Source: an uncultured Acidobacteriaceae bacterium (GTDB lineage: Bacteria > Acidobacteriota > Terriglobia > Terriglobales > Acidobacteriaceae). From it: a DNA stretch of 64,000 nt. The translations under genes were made by a program, and so were the position numbers. The notes below the pieces were generated by a model. That model was not told where the DNA came from. It did not search any database and saw only the letters and a list, made by a program, of their open reading frames with translations. Location of the stretch: assembly GCA_964242225.1 (NCBI GenBank), contig CAXTAE010000001.1:650169-714168 (forward strand), written 5' to 3'. Shown piece by piece: positions 4,558-13,389 of the stretch; positions within the stretch are counted from its first letter, which is position 1; every line of letters begins with the position of its first letter.

Positions 4558-5916
<1,359 letters not shown>

Positions 5917-6079: not shown

Positions 6080-7624
6080 TTGGATACTATGGACCGTATG
6101 CCTGGAAGTGAGACAACCCCGCAACTGCCTGAGTTTTCAAGGCTTGTTGCCGCTCGGTACACCTTGGTACCGCTGATGCGTACGGTCTTGGCCGATCTGG
6201 AGACACCCGTAGGGGCGTTTTTGCGGGTCGCAGCCGAGGCGCCCGAAGCGTTTCTGCTGGAATCGGTGGAGGGCGGTGAGAAGATCGGGCGCTACACCTT
6301 TATCGGCGTGCGGCCCTACCGCACGATGACCGCACGGGAGGGCTCGATCACTGTTTCTGAGGCTGGGGCTACACGGACCTACGAAGGTGATGTTTTCGCG
6401 GAGTTGAAGGGCGCACTTGAGGGACACACCCCCGCAAAGCTTCCTGGGCTGCCGCCGTTTACAGCTGGAGCGGTTGGCTTTTTCGCGTACGACGTGGTGC
6501 GCCGGATCGAGCGGCTGCCGAAGATCGCCGAAGATGAACTGCATGTGCCGGACGCACACCTGATGTTCTTCGATCAGGTGTTGGCGTTTGATCACGTGAG
6601 AAAGGCCATTCATCTCCTTGTGACGGCAGGGGCGCGCTACCCGCTGCATCAGGCCAACGCGGCCGGGGCGTTCGACGATGCGGAGGCGCGGCTGGATGAG
6701 TTGGAGGCTCTACTGGAAGCGGCGTTGCCCAAACCCGCAAAGGTCCGGATAGCGGAGCCGCTGGCGATCATTCCGCGGACGGAGGCTAAAGATTTTCTGG
6801 AAGCGGTCGATAAAACAAAGGAGTACATCGCGGCCGGAGACGTGTTTCAGTGCGTGCTGTCGCAGCGGTTCGATTGCGTGCCGGGGGTGGATGCGTTTGA
6901 GATATATCGATCGCTGCGGATTGTGAATCCGTCGCCCTACATGTACTTTCTTCGCTTTGGGCTGCCGTCCACGGCCACGCGGGAGGTGCCGCGACGCTGC
7001 CACATCGTGGGGTCCTCGCCGGAGATGCTGGTGCGCGTAAAGGACGACCGGGTGGAGTATCGTCCGATCGCGGGAACGCGGCCACGCGGCGCCGATGAGG
7101 CGCAGGACCTGGAGCATGAGCGGAGCCTGCGCGCCGATGCCAAGGAGGTCTCCGAGCACGTGATGCTGGTTGACCTTGGCCGCAATGATGTGGGGCGAGT
7201 GAGCGAGTTTGGGTCAGTACGGGTAAAGGAGCTGATGTTTATCGAGCGCTACTCGCACGTTATGCACCTGGTAAGCGCGCTGGAGGGCACGCTGCGCGCG
7301 GGGCTGGCGCCGCTGGACGCGTTTCGTTCCTGCTTCCCCGCAGGAACACTCTCAGGCGCACCGAAGATCCGGGCGATGCAGATCATCGAGGAGATGGAAC
7401 CGGTGCGGCGCGGCGTGTATGGCGGTGCAATCGTCTATGCGGACTTCAGCGGCAACTTCGACAGCTGCATTGCGATCCGTACCCTTTTTATGGATGGCGA
7501 AACGGGCTACATCCAAGCGGGGGCCGGGGTGGTAGCGGATTCAGTGCCGCAGACGGAGTTCGAGGAGTGCGCGAACAAGGCACGTGCGGTGGTGCGAGCG
7601 ATCGAACGAGCTCGCGGGACCTAG
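6080..7624 (+). CDS. trpE: Anthranilate synthase component I
   Basis: FLLESVEGGEKIGRY, NPSPYMY, EHVMLVDLGRND, PAGTLSGAPK and QAGAG motifs. Start could be 6089 or 6098. Confidence 0.93.
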   Translation: MDTMDRMPGSETTPQLPEFSRLVAARYTLVPLMRTVLADLETPVGAFLRVAAEAPEAFLLESVEGGEKIGRYTFIGVRPYRTMTAREGSITVSEAGATRTYEGDVFAELKGALEGHTPAKLPGLPPFTAGAVGFFAYDVVRRIERLPKIAEDELHVPDAHLMFFDQVLAFDHVRKAIHLLVTAGARYPLHQANAAGAFDDAEARLDELEALLEAALPKPAKVRIAEPLAIIPRTEAKDFLEAVDKTKEYIAAGDVFQCVLSQRFDCVPGVDAFEIYRSLRIVNPSPYMYFLRFGLPSTATREVPRRCHIVGSSPEMLVRVKDDRVEYRPIAGTRPRGADEAQDLEHERSLRADAKEVSEHVMLVDLGRNDVGRVSEFGSVRVKELMFIERYSHVMHLVSALEGTLRAGLAPLDAFRSCFPAGTLSGAPKIRAMQIIEEMEPVRRGVYGGAIVYADFSGNFDSCIAIRTLFMDGETGYIQAGAGVVADSVPQTEFEECANKARAVVRAIERARGT

Positions 7625-7776
7625 CCTGCGTCATGCTTCGCCTCGCACCGAAGCGCGCAGGTAACCTTCTGTCGCCTTTTGCGACGCCTTCTGCCATACA
7701 TGCGCCAAAGGAGGCAGGACTGCTGCACCTTTGCGGTAGCAACAGGAGTCCTCCCACGGGTTACTGTGAGGAGGTT

Positions 7777-8193
7777 ATGGATGGGGACCTCGACGATCAA
7801 CTCGAAAAGCTGGAACGCAGCCTGGCTATTTTCAAGAGTGCAGCAGACCGCGCACTGGGCGTTTCCGGGACGGTGCAGCACCTAGGGATCACCTTCAGCG
7901 TGAGCCGCCGCTTCGTCATCGCCGATCTTTCGCCGTTGGCCTTCTTCCATCTTGTGGAGCAGATTGAGGGCGATGAGGTAAGCGCGGCCGTCGTACGGCT
8001 GTATGACCGCCTCATGCCGCTGCTGCTATGCCAACATCAGTGGACTCCCCTGAAACGAGCCAGCGATCACCAAGTGATGCAGCTGGGCGCCCATGCTGTT
8101 GAGCCAGCGCGAGGTCCACACATCTGCCGATGCTGCACGGCATATGCGCTGGGCACCTCGTTGCCGGTGACGGGTCGCGCCCTTCGGCCCTGA
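7777..8193 (+). CDS. Hypothetical protein with C-terminal Cys/His cluster
   Basis: ATG 7777 after a strong gaggagg RBS; 138 aa; CQHQW...HICRCC. Confidence 0.65.
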   Translation: MDGDLDDQLEKLERSLAIFKSAADRALGVSGTVQHLGITFSVSRRFVIADLSPLAFFHLVEQIEGDEVSAAVVRLYDRLMPLLLCQHQWTPLKRASDHQVMQLGAHAVEPARGPHICRCCTAYALGTSLPVTGRALRP

Positions 8194-8233
8194 GCCAAAC
8201 GGGTGGACATGAGGGGTCATGAGAGCACGGTCT

Positions 8234-9715
8234 CTACCCAAGCTCGTTCGGGTCGGCCTGCCTGGTGAAGTGGAACAGGATCCTGCCATTGCTCAGCAAC
8301 AGCTCGCGACTAACGTGGAAGTACCGCGCGAAAGCGGTTCGCAGTGCTTCTTCGGTGACATGGCCGTAAATGGCTTCTCGCCCCCGCAGCACCTCTACAA
8401 ACTTCGGATCGGTCGGGGGGACCCATTCCAAGATGAGGTTTTTGGTCGTGATGCGGCTACAAAGGGAGGCAATGTGCTCCATCGGGATCTGACTGCTGAG
8501 CAGCAGATGGTGGATGACGGCCAGCATCATGACTAGGTCGAAGTGGCCCTCGCACCGTTGCAGGAACGACAGGGTCTCCCGGTTCTCCCAACCCAACGCC
8601 GGGGTAGCGTAGGCCAGGTCGACGCAGAGTGGAAGGATGTTTTTGCCGGTGCCCCGCAACTCCGTGCAGAGTCGGTCAAGAGCGCCCGTGTCCGTGTCAA
8701 TGGACACGACGGCCGCGCCGGCATCGGCCGCAATGCGCGAGTACACGCCCGTGTTGCAGCCTACGTCGAGCACATTCCGGGGCGAACAGCTCCTTAGGGT
8801 CTCCGCGACAAACTGCCGCTTTTCTTCGTGGTCGCCCCCGGAGTAGTGTCCGGCGGTCTCGACGTAGCCTGACCAGGTAGAGGGGCGCAGTGGGGGTGCG
8901 ATGCGATCGGTCGCGGTACGCAGGCCGGCGATGCGCTTGAGCAGAATCTTCTTATTGATCTCTGGTCCTTGCGCGCTGCTCGCTGCCTGGGCTCGCGACT
9001 CCAGCTGCTTCATGCTCCCGGAGGCCTTGCGGCTCCAACGCCCCAGCACCACCGGCAGGGTCACTGACGTGAGCGCCACACGGTTCAGCCGCGACGGCCA
9101 GGGCAGCGCCGCGAAGATGTCCTCCGGCTCAAAGCCATCACGGCGTAGCTGCGCCGTCGACAGCGGCCAACCGAGCTCCGCATGCGCCAGCAAGGGCAGC
9201 AGAAGCGTGCGGACATACTGGCCATAGGCTAGCCAGATGGGGGAACTGCTGTCGAGGCGTTCTACGGAGAGCACATCCACAAAGATCGGGGTGGTTCCCT
9301 GAAAGAGGATGTTGAGCGGAGTCGCGTCCTTGAGAACCCAGCCTTCCCCAACAAGCCGTTGGCAGAGGTCGGTGGTAAGCCTGGCCGCGGCGAGCCACAG
9401 CGCACTCGGCCACTCCCAAGGGTAGGAGATGAACGGAATGCGCGGATGGCGCAGGACGACTGTCCCGTCGGTACTCTCCAGCACCTCGCTCGCGACCAGT
9501 CGGCCATCGGCGACCAGCTCGGTTGCCAGGGGCGTCGCCAGAAAGGCGAGGATGTTCGTAGCGTGAGGTTCGCGCACCGACCGAAAGACACCTTCAGGCC
9601 TCAGCTCTACGCTGCCTGCGGGGTCGCGAAAGGTTTTGTGGGTCTGTCCGACGTGTTCCTGAAGCAAGGTGTTCCTTTCCGGTGCAGAGCAATCGCGAAC
9701 TCGGGCGGGGAGCAC
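8234..9715 (-). CDS. NoeA-like protein: kinase-like N-terminal domain fused to a class I SAM methyltransferase
   Basis: TFRDPAG, ISYPWEW and LKDATPLNILF...FVDVLS (kinase catalytic-loop-like), then VLDVGCNTG (SAM motif I) and LAVIHHL. GTG start is uncertain. Confidence 0.75.
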   Translation of the reverse strand: MLPARVRDCSAPERNTLLQEHVGQTHKTFRDPAGSVELRPEGVFRSVREPHATNILAFLATPLATELVADGRLVASEVLESTDGTVVLRHPRIPFISYPWEWPSALWLAAARLTTDLCQRLVGEGWVLKDATPLNILFQGTTPIFVDVLSVERLDSSSPIWLAYGQYVRTLLLPLLAHAELGWPLSTAQLRRDGFEPEDIFAALPWPSRLNRVALTSVTLPVVLGRWSRKASGSMKQLESRAQAASSAQGPEINKKILLKRIAGLRTATDRIAPPLRPSTWSGYVETAGHYSGGDHEEKRQFVAETLRSCSPRNVLDVGCNTGVYSRIAADAGAAVVSIDTDTGALDRLCTELRGTGKNILPLCVDLAYATPALGWENRETLSFLQRCEGHFDLVMMLAVIHHLLLSSQIPMEHIASLCSRITTKNLILEWVPPTDPKFVEVLRGREAIYGHVTEEALRTAFARYFHVSRELLLSNGRILFHFTRQADPNELG

Positions 9716-9849
9716 CGGCAGGCGGAGACTGACTTAACTCATGGTAGAAAGCGTGGCGAACCGTTCACGTTCTGTTAATCTCCCTGTAACCAGACGCTGG
9801 AGTCAATCTTTTCCCCTAGAAATCTTCGGCGCAACGTACGAGGTCCGCA

Positions 9850-10074
9850 TTGAAACAGTTCTTCTCATTGCTTTTGACCATTGTTTTGGTGATCTCTGCC
9901 GCGTTCACCCTGGAGGGCCACGCCTACGCCTACGTCGATCCCGGCTCCGGGCTGCTGATCTTCCAGATTGCCGGCACAGTGATCACGGGCGGCGTACTTT
10001 GGTTCCGCCGGCGCATCCGCAACCTATTCAGACGTCCTGCGGCGTCGGCACCCGGACCTGATCAGCAGAGCTGA
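9850..10074 (+). CDS. Small exported membrane peptide with YVDPGSG motif
   Basis: TTG start after gagg; signal-like N-terminus ending HAYA, then YVDPGSG, a TM helix and a basic RRRIR tail; 74 aa. Confidence 0.8.
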   Translation: MKQFFSLLLTIVLVISAAFTLEGHAYAYVDPGSGLLIFQIAGTVITGGVLWFRRRIRNLFRRPAASAPGPDQQS

Positions 10075-10197
10075 AGGGTAGTCCCTCGGCAGCTTCCATT
10101 ACCCGCTACGTGGAATGGATCTAGCACGAGCGACGTAGAGGGACGGTAAGCGCTTGGGTTCGATCCTGCACGTTAGCAGGGCTTTCGCTACGGTAGC

Positions 10198-11826
10198 TTG
10201 AGGGCTGAGGAGACTGGCTTGAAGGCTTCGGAGAGCCCTTGGCTTCTGGCGGTTACTCCCGCGATGTTGCTGCTTGCGCCCGTGTACGCACCGTTCATCT
10301 CGGTCCGGCACAAGTACTTCTACCATCTGGAGGGTTCAGCCACCACGGTGCTCGTTGCCGTGCTGCTGAACCTTTTCGTCACTTGGCTGCTCTTTGCGGC
10401 GCTGTTGTGGGTGGCGAACCACGTGGCTCCCCTGCGACTGGCATTCTGGTCGATCTTTGTCGCCGTGCTGCCGTGGTTGCTTGCCCACCACTACTCCGTG
10501 CTCATGGATCGTGGACTGCCGGGAAAGGTGAACAAGGCGCTTCTGCTGCTCTGCCCGTTGTTTCTTGTGGCGGTGGCAGTTTCGTACCGTTCCTTTCTTC
10601 TTTCTCGGTCTGAGCGAATCTACGATCGCCTCGGCGGGATCACGGCGCTGGTATCGCTTAGCTGGATGCTTACGATGGGGCAGCTGGTGTACTACGCAAT
10701 CGCCATGCGCGGCATCAACGATCCGCATCCGTTACACGGGGCCGCCGGCATTCAGGGATCGCTTAAGCAGCATGCGAAAGCAGTGGGACAGCACTCCCGG
10801 ATGATCTGGATCATCTTCGACGAGCTGGGGTACGACCAGCTCTATGCGAGACGACCCGCTGGCCTGGCTATGCCCAACTTTGACGCTCTCGCGGCACAGT
10901 CTACGGCCTTTACCGCCGCGATCGCTCCGGGCGACTACACCGAGCAGGTGGTGCCGGCGCTGCTGCTGGGGGAGCCTGCGCGGCGGGTCTCGTTTACGAC
11001 AAGTGGAGGCTTGCTGTACCAGAACACGCCAGCGGCCCAATGGCTGGCGTTTGACCCGCAGAGGACCGTCTTTGCCGATGCCTTGCAGGCCGGGGTCTCG
11101 ACCGCTGTGGCGGGTTGGCACAACCCCTACTGCCGCCTGCTCTCCCCGGTTCTGGACCACTGCTTCTGGAGCTCGCGCGTCGACTCCGCTACGCCCGACT
11201 TTGAGGGTGTCGCTTCGCTGCAGGAGAATGCCCTGGGGCCGGCCCGGCGCATGCTTTTCAGTCTCACGGCGGGAAGCCATGGCCGCGCCGCTGCCGCTGC
11301 CGAGAAGCGTATCGCGGATTTGCACATAGCCGATGTCACCGCACTGGTCGGCGCTGCAGACAAGATGCTCGCGGATACCTCCATCGGCTTTCTGTTTGTT
11401 CACCTCCCCGTCCCGCATCCGGCAGGCATCTACGACCGGCGGCAGGGAAAAATGACCGATGTCGGGCGCTCTTCCTACGTTGACAACTTGGCGCTGGCGG
11501 ACAAGGTGCTCGGCCACCTGCGGGACGAACTGGCCGCCCACGGTGACTGGGATGGGGCTACCGTACTGGTGATGGGCGACCATGCCTGGCGAACCAAACT
11601 GTTGTGGGAGGGGCAGAGCAGCTGGACCTCCGAGGACCAGGAGGCCAGCCACAACGGTGGGTACGATCCACGGCCGGCCTACCTGGTCAAGCTGCCGCAT
11701 CAGGCAACGGGCACGCGCATCGCTACCCCTTTCCCTACTTTGCGCACGCGGGCGCTTTTTGACCAGGTACTGGAAGGCAGGATGACCTCGGTCGATGAGC
11801 TGCAGCGGTGGGCTGCGCAGCCGTAG
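10198..11826 (+). CDS. Membrane alkaline-phosphatase-superfamily (sulfatase-like / LtaS-EptA-like) transferase, NoeB-like
   Basis: About five N-terminal TM helices; IWIIFDEL, YTEQVVP, FVHLPVPH and VMGDHAWR metal-site motifs. Confidence 0.78.
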   Translation: MRAEETGLKASESPWLLAVTPAMLLLAPVYAPFISVRHKYFYHLEGSATTVLVAVLLNLFVTWLLFAALLWVANHVAPLRLAFWSIFVAVLPWLLAHHYSVLMDRGLPGKVNKALLLLCPLFLVAVAVSYRSFLLSRSERIYDRLGGITALVSLSWMLTMGQLVYYAIAMRGINDPHPLHGAAGIQGSLKQHAKAVGQHSRMIWIIFDELGYDQLYARRPAGLAMPNFDALAAQSTAFTAAIAPGDYTEQVVPALLLGEPARRVSFTTSGGLLYQNTPAAQWLAFDPQRTVFADALQAGVSTAVAGWHNPYCRLLSPVLDHCFWSSRVDSATPDFEGVASLQENALGPARRMLFSLTAGSHGRAAAAAEKRIADLHIADVTALVGAADKMLADTSIGFLFVHLPVPHPAGIYDRRQGKMTDVGRSSYVDNLALADKVLGHLRDELAAHGDWDGATVLVMGDHAWRTKLLWEGQSSWTSEDQEASHNGGYDPRPAYLVKLPHQATGTRIATPFPTLRTRALFDQVLEGRMTSVDELQRWAAQP

Positions 11827-11872
11827 CGGCTGCCGTGTACCGGGGCTTCAGCCGCTGCGTAAGATAAGGGAT

Positions 11873-12454
11873 ATGGTTTTTGTGTTGGACAACTACGACA
11901 GCTTCACCTACAACCTCGTGCAGTACATGGGGGAGATGGGAGCGGAGATCGTGGTAAAGCGCAACGACGAGGTGACGCCGGAGGCGGTGGTGGCAATGCG
12001 GCCGGAGCGGATTCTGCTCTCGCCGGGCCCGTGTACGCCGGGCGAAGCGGGGATCCTGATCCCGCTGATTGAGCGTCTCGCCCTGCTGCCCGAGGCCGAG
12101 CAGATTCCGGTATTAGGCGTTTGCCTCGGGCACCAGGCGATTGGTGCAGCATTTGGCGGCCAGGTGGTGCGGGCAGCCAACCTGATGCATGGCAAGACCA
12201 GCGTCGTGGCGCACGATGGGCGAACCATTTTCCGGGATCTGCCTCAGCCAATGACCTGCACGCGCTACCACTCCCTGATCGTCGAAGAGAGCAGTGTGCC
12301 GGAGACCCTGGAGGTCTCGGCGCGGGTAGCGGGTGAGGGAACGATCATGGCATTGCGGCACCGCACGCTGCCGATCGAGGGTGTGCAATTTCATCCCGAG
12401 AGCGTTCTGACCGAACATGGCAAGCAGCTGATCGCCAACTTCCTGAGGGGCTGA
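11873..12454 (+). CDS. trpG: Anthranilate/aminodeoxychorismate synthase glutamine amidotransferase component II
   Basis: MVFVLDNYDSFTYNL, LSPGPC, GVCLGHQ and GVQFHPES motifs; ATG at 11873. Confidence 0.92.
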   Translation: MVFVLDNYDSFTYNLVQYMGEMGAEIVVKRNDEVTPEAVVAMRPERILLSPGPCTPGEAGILIPLIERLALLPEAEQIPVLGVCLGHQAIGAAFGGQVVRAANLMHGKTSVVAHDGRTIFRDLPQPMTCTRYHSLIVEESSVPETLEVSARVAGEGTIMALRHRTLPIEGVQFHPESVLTEHGKQLIANFLRG

Positions 12455-13389
12455 TGGGAGTTCTTATATCCCGCAAGTACGATCATGCAACTCGCTCGGC
12501 GCCGGCGCTTCTTTTCCTGTTGTTAAACGCCTGTTCTCTGCCGGCCCAACAACCGCAGCCGATGGGCTCTGTGAGCACTCGTGACGCGCGGGTGACTGGT
12601 GGCCTGGAGGTGGGCGGGGAGATCGCCCGGCTGATCAACAATGCCAGCGTAACGTCCTCTGATCGTGCCGCTCCGGTGGCACTGAGCCGCGGTGGGCATG
12701 TGCTGGTGTGCGCGCGAAGCGAGTTTCGCATGCTGCGCTCCGGGTCGGCAGGGGCTCTGCTCTTCGGGCTAAACCGCGGCGCCATTGAGCTGTACTCCGA
12801 AGGCCAGACGGGCGACGTGATCCTGACGCCGGACCTGAAGCTGACGCCGGTTACCAAGGGCAGCTTCGATCTGCGAGTTCGTGTGGCTGGTGATGGCGAC
12901 ACCTGCGTGGAGAACGCTGGAACGACCGCGCCGGTGCTCAACGCAACCGACGCATTCAGCTCTAACAGCTATCGCGTTCTGCCAGGGCAGCACCTGCTGT
13001 TCGTGACGGGAGATCTGCACAAGGTTGTGGACCACGAGCGAACGCCCTGCGGCTGTCCGGCAGCGTTGCCCCCAATGTTGGTCGGGAAGAATGGTCAGCC
13101 CGCCTCAAGTGCCGCGGCTGCGCACCCGTTCCCGCAGGATGAAAGTGAAGGGCTGATACCGAGCATCGCGCCGGCCAACGAAGCTCCTGTCGGTGTGGCC
13201 AGTTCACAGGTCTCGACAACCTTCAGTTATGAGGACGGGCGAGGCGCACCACCGCCGGGCGGCGACACGGCCGCGACTGCTGCAGAGCCAGCTTCAGGGG
13301 TCGCCGTGCCCGCGGTCGGCAGCGCCAAGGGCGGGTTCGGCGGCGCCCTAAGGCGATTCTTCCACCACCTGTTTCACCCAGGATCGTAG
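12454..13389 (+). CDS. Hypothetical exported protein (beta-rich, possibly FecR-like), translationally coupled to trpG
   Basis: TGATG overlap with the trpG stop; hydrophobic signal-like stretch; CPxC-like PCGCP; Pro/Ala-rich tail. Confidence 0.6.
   Translation: MGVLISRKYDHATRSAPALLFLLLNACSLPAQQPQPMGSVSTRDARVTGGLEVGGEIARLINNASVTSSDRAAPVALSRGGHVLVCARSEFRMLRSGSAGALLFGLNRGAIELYSEGQTGDVILTPDLKLTPVTKGSFDLRVRVAGDGDTCVENAGTTAPVLNATDAFSSNSYRVLPGQHLLFVTGDLHKVVDHERTPCGCPAALPPMLVGKNGQPASSAAAAHPFPQDESEGLIPSIAPANEAPVGVASSQVSTTFSYEDGRGAPPPGGDTAATAAEPASGVAVPAVGSAKGGFGGALRRFFHHLFHPGS

What the first reader, a model, noticed from the sequence alone, without database searches (positions are those of the whole stretch)
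9850..10074. Micro-protein whose mature form would be a 7-residue exposed motif (YVDPGSG) on a single TM anchor
Seen: MKQFFSLLLTIVLVISAAFTLEGHAYA has an A-x-A signal peptidase I site directly before YVDPGSG, followed by a hydrophobic helix and a basic stop-transfer tail (WFRRRIRNLFRR). Inference: after cleavage only YVDPGSG would face the periplasm, which suits a modification acceptor (Ser or Tyr), a carrier, or an accessory subunit of the neighbouring transferase. I recall similar Y[IV]DPG[ST]G micro-proteins beside surface-polymer genes but no assigned function.
Basis: partly seen in the sequence, partly recalled or inferred. Interest (0 to 1): 0.68.

Follow-up and report, generated by a model that had tools for sequence, protein, structure and literature searches.

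The report
Membrane microprotein of the NoeA/NoeB cassette
The 74-codon frame is a real, widely conserved gene for a tiny single-pass membrane protein that travels with a kinase-methyltransferase (NoeA-like) and a membrane phosphotransferase (NoeB-like), the same trio as in the rhizobial nodL-noeA-noeB nodulation operon, where the small gene has gone largely unnoticed and its role is still unknown.

Summary
Window 9850-10074 (+, TTG start, GAGG 6 nt upstream) encodes a signal-peptide-like segment ending AYA, then YVDPGSG, an 18-residue hydrophobic helix and RRRIRNLFRR.

It is not a chance ORF. A profile search found at least 6,949 protein clusters, none with a Pfam or NCBIfam model. Across 221 members, -3 and -1 are Ala in 96%. 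Y+1, D+3, G+5 and an in-membrane Gln+12 are about 100% conserved, and S/T+6 is 98%.

The gene belongs to a three-gene cassette:
- In 85 related loci it is followed by a NoeB-like, Thr-nucleophile alkaline-phosphatase-fold membrane enzyme, or by NoeA-like then NoeB-like, often with 4-nt overlaps.
- In 201 Acidobacteriota genomes it co-occurs with NoeA-like in 45 of 46 (Fisher p about 1e-42) and is adjacent in 40 of 45.
- The same small ORF lies between nodL and noeA on 61 Sinorhizobium, Ensifer and Rhizobium plasmids.

Best reading (about 45%): a bitopic adaptor or small subunit that holds the cytoplasmic kinase-methyltransferase at the membrane and couples it to the periplasmic transferase. 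Signal-peptide-less variants show that a free N-terminal Tyr is not universal. Expression could not be tested.

The parts
9840..9843 (+). Shine-Dalgarno-like GAGG, 6 nt before the TTG start
   Evidence: Read directly from the sequence.
9850..9930 (+). Signal-peptide-like segment, residues 1-27: n-region MK, h-region FFSLLLTIVLVISAAF, c-region TLEGHAYA with A-x-A
   Evidence: In the family -3 and -1 are Ala in 96%, -2 is variable, and the h-region is conserved only in hydrophobicity (mean Kyte-Doolittle 2.0).
9931..9951 (+). YVDPGSG motif, residues 28-34, predicted to face the periplasm at the membrane surface
   Evidence: Y, D, P and G are about 100% conserved and S/T is 98%. The broader family reads [YH]-x-D-P-x-[ST]-G.
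9952..10005 (+). Transmembrane helix, residues 35-52 (LLIFQIAGTVITGGVLWF), with invariant Gln39 and a face of small residues
   Evidence: Q+12 100%; G/A/S enriched at +15, +16, +19, +20. AlphaFold2 models a helix over mature residues 8-32.
10006..10035 (+). Basic amphipathic juxtamembrane tail RRRIRNLFRR, residues 53-62, predicted cytoplasmic
   Evidence: R53, R55, L59 and F60 are invariant among close homologues. The tail reads [YF]W.[RK][ILV][KRT] in distant branches.
10036..10074 (+). Variable C-terminal tail and TGA stop
   Evidence: This part is not conserved.
10198..11826 (+). NoeB-like membrane enzyme: about 5 N-terminal TM helices plus a periplasmic alkaline-phosphatase/sulfatase-fold domain with a Thr nucleophile
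   Evidence: Pfam Sulfatase E 3e-11. Invariant D208, T248, H402, H407, D461, H462 and R465. AlphaFold2 pLDDT 90.4. Foldseek hits S1 sulfatases and full-length PbgA/YejM.
8234..9715 (-). NoeA-like atypical kinase plus class I SAM methyltransferase, divergent from the microprotein gene
   Evidence: 29% identity over 94% of its length to Sinorhizobium/Ensifer NoeA, E 1e-40. Invariant FRDPxG, D130, N135 and D147 (kinase) and D317xGxNTG (methyltransferase). Family described in PMC9758233.

Best explanation
The ORF is a genuine gene for a bitopic inner-membrane microprotein, the third and so far overlooked component of the NoeA/NoeB envelope-modification cassette. Most likely a Sec signal peptide is removed at AYA|Y. 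That would leave a 47-residue protein with Y-V-D-P-G-S-G at the periplasmic membrane surface, one helix crossing the membrane, and a basic amphipathic tail in the cytoplasm. The helix carries an invariant Gln and a small-residue face suited to helix-helix packing. I propose that it is a small adaptor subunit. Its tail would hold, and possibly activate, the soluble NoeA-like kinase-methyltransferase at the membrane, where that enzyme's lipid-linked substrate sits. Its helix and periplasmic motif would contact the NoeB-like Thr-nucleophile phosphotransferase, or another membrane partner where NoeB is absent. This would couple cytoplasmic and periplasmic steps of a phosphate-containing surface decoration. 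Shown: gene reality, family, motif conservation, genetic linkage to both enzymes, and intact catalytic residues in both enzymes. Inferred: signal-peptide cleavage, topology, physical contacts and the chemistry.
For: Family size and conservation. Gene order microprotein->NoeB-like or microprotein->NoeA-like->NoeB-like in nearly all of 85 loci, with frequent 4-nt stop/start overlaps that suggest coupled translation. Phyletic co-occurrence with NoeA-like in 45 of 46 genomes among 201 Acidobacteriota, Fisher p 1.2e-42, adjacent in 40 of 45. The same trio follows nodL in Ensifer canadensis, and the ORF is on 61 sym plasmids; hhalign probability 97%, E 1e-11. It also occurs in a Planctomycete plasmid. 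The microprotein pairs with either enzyme alone in different lineages, so it behaves as a hub. The tail has no invariant Ser, Thr or Tyr, so it looks like a docking segment rather than a kinase target. It is always a separate small gene: no credible fusion to a large protein among the best 150 clusters. Invariant Gln and small residues inside the helix. Both enzymes keep their catalytic residues. PMC9758233 independently reports a ~65-aa hypothetical protein next to NoeA homologues in 65% of 816 neighbourhoods, and NoeB homologues in 38%.
Against: No direct evidence of any contact. AlphaFold2 of a read-through fusion of the mature microprotein, the natural 41-codon spacer and NoeB gave low confidence for the motif (pLDDT about 49) and only 68-76 for the helix. 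That run used only 7 paired sequences and gave no coordinates, so it is uninformative rather than negative. A simple tether would not need an invariant periplasmic motif. Some loci carry the microprotein with neither enzyme nearby (Tunturiibacter, next to DUF5715). Expression in this organism is untested. I did not verify by sequence that Lani_1193 of the paper belongs to this family.
Confidence: 0.45

Rival explanations
1. Acceptor or carrier. The microprotein is itself the substrate. Its membrane-proximal Y-x-D-P-G-S/T would mimic a lipid head group and be decorated by the NoeB-type phosphotransferase with a phosphate-containing group. It could serve as the end product or as a membrane-anchored primer for a polymer.
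For: Invariant Tyr+1 and 98% Ser/Thr+6 lie within a few residues of the membrane, where EptA/LtaS-type active sites work; that placement rests on my knowledge of those enzymes. NoeB-like has a complete Thr-nucleophile metal site. Microprotein->sulfatase pairs sit in teichoic-acid-like and phosphonate loci. Hub behaviour with both enzymes would fit a common substrate.
Against: S/T+6 and the whole motif stay conserved in microprotein+NoeA loci that have no NoeB-like gene nearby. At E<=1e-30 the NoeB-like subfamily was found in only 9 of 201 genomes, against 45 with the microprotein. Ala replaces S/T in about 2% of members. D-P-G-S at a helix start can also be a structural helix cap. NoeA is cytoplasmic and cannot reach the motif after export.
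Confidence: 0.25
2. Minimal transmembrane sensor or regulator, or a self-associating membrane peptide. The periplasmic motif would bind a ligand or lipid and switch the NoeA kinase through the tail. Alternatively, Gln-mediated oligomers would form a conduit for the cassette's product.
For: The conserved core pair across the phylum is microprotein plus NoeA alone, with variable downstream genes (amidase, rhomboid plus B12-radical SAM, unknowns). Invariant polar Gln and small residues inside the helix.
Against: No ligand-binding domain is possible in 7 residues. No data on oligomerisation. This reading overlaps with the adaptor model.
Confidence: 0.15
3. A cargo-less sorting signal or RiPP-like precursor. 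Motif plus TM plus basic cluster resembles PEP-CTERM/GlyGly-CTERM/LPXTG signals, or the peptide is a precursor modified by the kinase-methyltransferase before export.
For: Tripartite layout. The small gene lies directly upstream of modifying enzymes with coupled translation. One locus has a rhomboid protease right after NoeA.
Against: No NCBIfam or Pfam sorting-signal model matches. There is never a cargo domain. No exosortase, rhombosortase or sortase is consistently nearby. Most members carry a Sec signal peptide (268 of 273), which puts the motif out of reach of cytoplasmic enzymes. The tail has no invariant modifiable residue.
Confidence: 0.05
4. Chance ORF or non-coding spacer between the two enzyme genes.
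For: Unusual TTG start. No promoter or terminator consensus in the region. No expression data.
Against: Thousands of homologues with position-specific amino-acid conservation across at least four phyla.
Confidence: 0.01

Closest known systems
Small ORF between nodL and noeA in the Sinorhizobium/Ensifer nod-box n5 operon (hypothetical protein WP_011970946.1), and probably Lani_1193 of Legionella anisa (PMC9758233)
   Same: Same family: hhalign probability 97%, E 1e-11. Same layout: signal peptide AHA|YLDPGTGS, a helix with Gln, and a basic tail. Same neighbours, NoeA then NoeB. Lani_1193 is a ~65-aa hypothetical protein with borderline SignalP scores, found next to 65% of NoeA homologues.
   Different: Only about 25% identical outside the motif. 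In the window NoeA is inverted (divergent) and there is no nodL. The function of the rhizobial ORF is equally unknown. In S. meliloti 1021 pSymA no feature is listed under it, though PLSDB's gene table is incomplete. I did not check the identity with Lani_1193 by sequence.
BcsF with BcsE and BcsG of the E. coli cellulose phosphoethanolamine module (from my own knowledge)
   Same: A roughly 60-residue single-pass protein encoded with a cytoplasmic protein and a polytopic alkaline-phosphatase-fold phosphotransferase. It acts as the membrane link between them.
   Different: No sequence relation: the Pfam scan of the microprotein returned nothing. BcsE is not a kinase-methyltransferase. BcsF has no YxDPGSG motif.
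Transmembrane activators of split BY-kinases (S. aureus CapA, B. subtilis TkmA; from my own knowledge)
   Same: A membrane protein whose cytoplasmic juxtamembrane segment docks and activates a soluble kinase in surface-polysaccharide synthesis.
   Different: Those adaptors have two TM helices and a large external loop, and their kinases are P-loop BY-kinases. No homology.
WbdD, the O9a O-antigen chain terminator (methyltransferase plus kinase)
   Same: Weak PDB sequence hits of the NoeA-like methyltransferase domain to WbdD (E about 1e-3). The same pair of activities acts at the membrane on a lipid-linked glycan (PMC9758233).
   Different: Domain order is reversed. WbdD anchors itself through its own C-terminal region, whereas NoeA-like proteins have no anchor. 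That is the gap the microprotein could fill.
LtaS, EptA/MCR-1 and PbgA/YejM membrane alkaline-phosphatase-fold proteins (for the neighbouring NoeB-like enzyme)
   Same: N-terminal helical membrane domain plus an external domain. Thr nucleophile with Asp/His metal ligands. Full-length Foldseek alignment to PbgA (6xlp, 6v8q).
   Different: No significant sequence match to them (best PDB phmmer E 0.0098, to a sulfatase). Substrate unknown. No dedicated microprotein partner is described for these enzymes.

Membership tests
NoeA/NoeB-cassette microprotein family (unnamed; includes the Sinorhizobium nodL-noeA intergenic ORF) | [YH]-x-D-P-x-[ST]-G motif at the N-terminal end of a single TM helix, with Gln six residues after the S/T | tested here: met
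   The window has YVDPGSG...Q39. The family shows Y 100%, D 100%, P 98%, S/T 98% and Q 100%.
NoeA/NoeB-cassette microprotein family (unnamed; includes the Sinorhizobium nodL-noeA intergenic ORF) | Profile-level homology to the rhizobial and planctomycete members | tested here: met
   hhalign probability 97.4% (E 1.1e-11) and 96.9% (E 1.8e-10).
NoeA/NoeB-cassette microprotein family (unnamed; includes the Sinorhizobium nodL-noeA intergenic ORF) | Encoded next to a NoeA-like kinase-methyltransferase and/or a NoeB-like alkaline-phosphatase-fold membrane enzyme | tested here: met
   In the window NoeA-like is divergent 134 nt upstream and NoeB-like lies 123 nt downstream. The pattern holds in 85 loci and 45 genomes.
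Sec signal peptide cleaved by signal peptidase I | n-, h- and c-regions with small residues at -3 and -1 | tested here: met
   MK / FFSLLLTIVLVISAAF / TLEGHAYA. In the family -3 A 96%, -1 A or G 100%, -2 variable. 268 of 273 members have a hydrophobic pre-segment.
Sec signal peptide cleaved by signal peptidase I | Actual cleavage giving N-terminal Tyr | not testable with these tools
   Needs N-terminal sequencing or mass spectrometry. SignalP 6 scores for the probable Legionella homologues are borderline, 0.15-0.73. Variants without a signal peptide exist.
C-terminal protein-sorting signals (PEP-CTERM, GlyGly-CTERM, LPXTG and similar) | Match to a curated sorting-signal model, and a cargo domain in front of the signal | tested here: not met
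   No NCBIfam or Pfam hit at E<=0.01. Family members are 60-140 aa with nothing between the signal peptide and the motif.
BcsF (cellulose synthase small subunit) | Sequence match to the Pfam BcsF family | tested here: not met
   The Pfam scan of the microprotein returned 0 families. The resemblance is only in architecture and gene context.
LtaS/EptA-type membrane phosphotransferases (neighbour 10198-11826) | N-terminal multi-helix membrane domain plus an external alkaline-phosphatase-fold domain | tested here: met
   AlphaFold2 pLDDT 90.4, helices up to residue about 169, then an alpha/beta domain. Foldseek hits PbgA full length and sulfatases. Pfam Sulfatase.
LtaS/EptA-type membrane phosphotransferases (neighbour 10198-11826) | Thr nucleophile with acidic and Asp-His metal ligands, and no formylglycine C/S-x-P-x-R motif | tested here: met
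   D208, T248 (in YTEQVVP), D461 and H462 are invariant in 41-43 homologues. No CxPxR motif at the nucleophile.
LtaS/EptA-type membrane phosphotransferases (neighbour 10198-11826) | Demonstrated phospho-head-group transfer | not testable with these tools
   Needs a biochemical assay.
NoeA family (atypical kinase plus SAM methyltransferase; neighbour 8234-9715, minus strand) | Full-length similarity to NoeA, kinase D..N..D residues and methyltransferase motif I | tested here: met
   29% identity over 94% of its length, E 1e-40. D130, N135, D147 and D317xGxNTG are invariant. Family description in PMC9758233.

The most novel reading that the evidence does not exclude
The microprotein is a membrane-embedded protein acceptor, a 'proteolipid-like' carrier. 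After signal-peptide removal its N-terminal Y-x-D-P-G-S/T would be covalently decorated at the outer face of the inner membrane by the NoeB-type phosphotransferase. The added phosphate- or phosphonate-containing group would depend on the NoeA kinase-methyltransferase. The modified peptide, or a polymer primed on it, would be the actual surface or host-range signal of the nodL-noeA-noeB operon.
Probability: 0.15. Interest if true: 0.8.

Novelty: new variant of a known kind. Interest (0 to 1): 0.5.

Why it matters
NoeA and NoeB have been known since 1995 as host-range nodulation genes with no known biochemistry. Their homologues are spread over many phyla, including Legionella. This work shows that a third, tiny gene is the most faithful companion of the kinase-methyltransferase (45 of 46 genomes). 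It belongs to a family of thousands with no database model, and it sits inside the classic S. meliloti operon, where it is unannotated or labelled hypothetical. That gives a concrete, cheap handle on the problem: delete one 71-codon ORF in a laboratory symbiont, or look for a mass shift on one short peptide. It also adds a well-defined member to the short list of microproteins that organise envelope enzymes.

Tried and rejected
- **Pfam and NCBIfam on the microprotein:** nothing.
- **PDB sequence searches of both neighbours:** only generic sulfatase and methyltransferase hits.
- **tblastn of the NoeB-like protein against plasmids:** no match at 1e-5, although NoeB is annotated next to NoeA there. 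The two NoeB branches are too far apart for BLAST.
- **Literature search for the motif strings:** the full motifs (YVDPGSG, YIDPGSG, YLDPGTG, YLDPGSG) were in no paper, and the 20 papers with the shorter strings DPGSG or DPGTG were on unrelated subjects.
- **S. meliloti Ribo-seq paper:** the small ORF is not in the supplement text that is held, which is truncated.
- **Docking test:** the microprotein and NoeB-like genes are in the same frame, so I read through the three intervening stops. I folded the mature microprotein, spacer and NoeB as one chain with 6 similarly read-through homologues as paired rows. The motif scored pLDDT about 49, the helix 68-76, and pTM fell from 0.89 to 0.80. This gives no support for a defined docking pose. 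The test is weak: few paired rows, monomer weights, no coordinates returned. A first alignment that mixed unpaired rows was discarded because MAFFT misaligned it.
- **Context look-up of a divergent member (P0113):** not on record.
- **Promoter and terminator scan:** nothing, which is uninformative for this phylum.
- **Rejected readings:** sorting signal without cargo, RiPP precursor, and chance ORF (see rivals).

Full report
**Observation**

Window 9850-10074 (+) is a 74-codon ORF that starts at TTG, with GAGG 6 nt upstream. Neither Pfam nor NCBIfam has a model for it.

**Is it real?**

Yes.
- A word-indexed search found 10 relatives at 47-61% identity. In them AYAYVDPGSGLL, Q39 and RRRI..LF are invariant or nearly so.
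- An exhaustive phmmer search of 1.84 billion cluster representatives found 270 clusters at E<=1e-3. Almost all are 60-140 residues long, and none of the best 150 is a credible fusion to a larger protein.
- Across 221 sequences the pattern is that of a cleaved Sec signal peptide followed by a functional motif. Position -3 is Ala in 96%, -2 is variable (Y 55%, H 23%, others), and -1 is Ala 96% or Gly 4%.
- After the cleavage site come Y+1 100%, D+3 100%, P+4 98%, G+5 100%, S/T+6 98% (Ala 2%), G+7 92% and Q+12 100%. Small residues are enriched at +15, +16, +19 and +20. The first basic pair lies 18 residues after the motif in 148 of the 221 sequences, which is also the median.
- 268 of 273 members have a hydrophobic pre-segment.

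**Surroundings in the window**

- trpE lies at 6080-7624 and trpG at 11795-12454. Between them sit an unassigned ORF (7567-8193), a 493-aa protein on the minus strand (8234-9715), the microprotein gene, and a 542-aa protein (10198-11826).
- The 493-aa protein has an unassigned N-terminal half and a class I SAM methyltransferase domain.
- The 542-aa protein has a helical membrane domain followed by a Pfam Sulfatase domain.

**The neighbours**

- The minus-strand protein is 29% identical over 94% of its length to NoeA of Sinorhizobium and Ensifer (E 1e-40).
- In 34 homologues FRDPxG, D130, N135 and D147 are invariant, as is the methyltransferase motif D317xGxNTG. These match the atypical kinase residues described for this family, and the kinase-methyltransferase architecture, in PMC9758233.
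- The downstream protein folds with pLDDT 90.4. It has a membrane helical domain up to about residue 169, then an alpha/beta domain.
- Foldseek finds S1 sulfatases for the soluble domain and full-length PbgA/YejM for the whole chain.
- In 41-43 homologues D208, T248, H402, H407, D461, H462 and R465 are invariant. The nucleophile position is Thr in YTEQVVP, not the C/S-x-P-x-R of formylglycine sulfatases.
- It therefore looks like an active LtaS/EptA-type phosphotransferase, not a sulfatase. Annotators label rhizobial NoeB 'sulfatase-like hydrolase/transferase'.

**The cassette**

- In 85 related loci, mostly Acidobacteriaceae plus one Verrucomicrobia MAG, the microprotein gene is followed on the same strand by one of two arrangements. 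Either a NoeB-like gene follows directly, or a NoeA-like gene and then a NoeB-like gene.
- Stop and start codons overlap by 4 nt at many junctions.
- Exceptions are a few Tunturiibacter-type loci where the next gene is DUF5715, and a few loci with NoeA only.
- In Ensifer canadensis pT173b the order is nodL, a 71-aa 'hypothetical protein' (MPIIMSVLGFLILSIVPAHA|YLDPGTGSMLVQ...), noeA, noeB.
- hhalign relates that ORF to the family at 97% probability.
- It is present on 61 Sinorhizobium, Ensifer and Rhizobium plasmids, including S. meliloti 1021 pSymA. There PLSDB's gene table, which is incomplete, lists no feature under it.
- A Singulisphaera plasmid carries an unannotated 60-aa member in front of a NoeA-like gene and an 'LTA synthase family' gene.

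**Which partner is primary?**

- In an even sample of 201 Acidobacteriota genomes the microprotein profile hits 49. Four of these are weak hits in long open frames.
- The NoeA profile hits 46 genomes. 45 genomes have both, 1 has only NoeA, and 1 credible case has only the microprotein. Fisher p is 1.2e-42.
- The two genes are adjacent in 40 of the 45, by my comparison of the coordinates.
- The NoeB-like profile at E<=1e-30 hits only 9 genomes. That profile is built from close relatives, so this is a lower bound.
- In distant lineages the unit is microprotein plus NoeA, with variable downstream genes: an amidase, a rhomboid plus B12-radical SAM enzymes, or unknowns.
- Conversely, in marine and other metagenomes microprotein->sulfatase pairs have no NoeA on the contig. 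They lie among TagF-like glycerophosphotransferases, ABC transporters, NeuB/PglD-type sugar genes and phosphonate-type genes: phosphonate-binding proteins, a TPP enzyme, an aminotransferase and a B12-radical SAM enzyme.
- The microprotein therefore behaves as a hub that can pair with either enzyme.
- PMC9758233 reports the same asymmetry. A ~65-aa hypothetical neighbour, Lani_1193, occurs in 65% of 816 NoeA neighbourhoods and the NoeB homologue in 38%. SignalP 6 scores for Lani_1193 homologues are borderline.
- I could not obtain the Lani_1193 sequence, so its identity with this family is probable but unverified.

**Variants**

- Some distant members have no signal peptide: MIWTPLA-YLDPGSGS..., ...ELPLA-YLDPGSGS..., and MIRPPSIVL-HIDPGTGS..., which has His in place of Tyr.
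- Others vary at G+5 (YLDPASGS, YIDPVTGS).
- The positive-inside rule still puts the motif outside, but a free N-terminal Tyr is not universal.
- D, P, the S/T, the following G and the Gln are the constant core.

**Mechanism**

Shown:
- A conserved bitopic microprotein.
- Tight genetic coupling to a cytoplasmic kinase-methyltransferase and to a periplasm-facing phosphotransferase.
- Intact catalytic residues in both enzymes.

Inferred:
- N-out, C-in topology.
- Signal-peptide cleavage.
- Physical contacts between the three proteins.

The best-supported reading is a small adaptor subunit. The basic amphipathic tail would dock, and perhaps activate, NoeA at the membrane. NoeA has no anchor of its own, unlike WbdD. 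The helix, with its invariant Gln and small-residue face, and the periplasmic motif would pack against NoeB or another membrane partner.

Functional analogies, from my own knowledge, are BcsF in the BcsE-F-G phosphoethanolamine-cellulose module and the CapA/TkmA activators of split BY-kinases. There is no homology to either.

- The motif, including S/T+6, is equally conserved where no NoeB-like gene is nearby.
- Ala occasionally replaces S/T.
- D-P-G-S at a helix start can be purely structural.
- NoeA cannot reach the motif after export.

**A direct computational test was inconclusive**

The microprotein and NoeB genes share a frame, so I folded a read-through chain of the mature microprotein, the 41-codon spacer and NoeB. 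Six similarly read-through homologues served as paired rows. The motif got pLDDT about 49 and the helix 68-76. No coordinates are returned, so this neither supports nor excludes a complex.

**Novelty**

- The cassette has been noticed before: genetically by Ardourel et al. 1995, as cited in PMC9758233, and bioinformatically in PMC9758233.
- The microprotein itself has no family model.
- None of the full motifs (YVDPGSG, YIDPGSG, YLDPGTG, YLDPGSG) occurs in any of about 8.4 million searched papers. The shorter strings DPGSG and DPGTG occur only in papers on unrelated subjects.
- It has no assigned function.
- I rate it a new variant of a known kind (small single-pass partners of envelope enzymes), of moderate interest, with cheap decisive experiments available in S. 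meliloti.

**Not done**

- SignalP, DeepTMHMM and AlphaFold-Multimer were not available.

Noticed in passing
window 6080-12454: trpE (6080-7624) and trpG (11795-12454) are separated by about 4.2 kb. That stretch holds an unassigned 208-aa ORF (7567-8193) and the NoeA-like / microprotein / NoeB-like cassette, which looks like an insertion into the trp operon. The 311-aa ORF after trpG (12454-13389) has no Pfam hit, where trpD might be expected.
   Followed up: partly
NC_003037.1 419091-419303 (S. meliloti 1021 pSymA); L086 3760-3975: The 71-codon microprotein ORF between nodL and noeA is conserved on 61 sym plasmids. In many records, including strain 1021, PLSDB's gene table (which is incomplete) lists no feature under it. 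In Ensifer canadensis it overlaps the annotated noeA start by 23 nt.
   Followed up: partly
L011 6082-7911 and L032 6067-7881: In a Verrucomicrobia MAG and an Acidobacteria MAG the microprotein and NoeB-like genes are in the same frame, separated by a single stop codon. Stop-codon read-through would give a natural fusion.
   Followed up: no
L095 (G136:C1:360000-371000) 4596-5519 and 6690-10708: A rhomboid protease gene lies directly after microprotein+NoeA, followed by two B12-binding radical SAM enzymes. This is one locus only.
   Followed up: no
L099-L101, L089 and two JGI contigs without DNA: In marine and other metagenomes, microprotein->sulfatase pairs sit beside phosphonate-binding ABC components, a TPP enzyme, an aminotransferase, B12-radical SAM, TagF-like glycerophosphotransferases and NeuB/PglD-type genes. 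This hints at phosphonate or polyol-phosphate decoration of surface glycans.
   Followed up: partly
L014, L020, L027, L028 (Tunturiibacter, Edaphobacter) and L096 (G169): Here the microprotein gene stands without NoeA or NoeB next to it, and in the first four the next gene is DUF5715. In G169 the microprotein, NoeA-like and NoeB-like genes lie at three separate places on the chromosome (2.15, 1.75 and 4.13 Mb).
   Followed up: partly
G041:C8:359239-360613 and G075:C21:108444-108653: Possible decay of the cassette. NoeA-like is split by a TAG stop in G041, and the microprotein frame has an internal TAA in G075.
   Followed up: no
window 9741-10061 (+): A 106-codon ATG ORF overlaps the microprotein gene in another frame. 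All homology evidence supports the 9850 frame instead.
   Followed up: no
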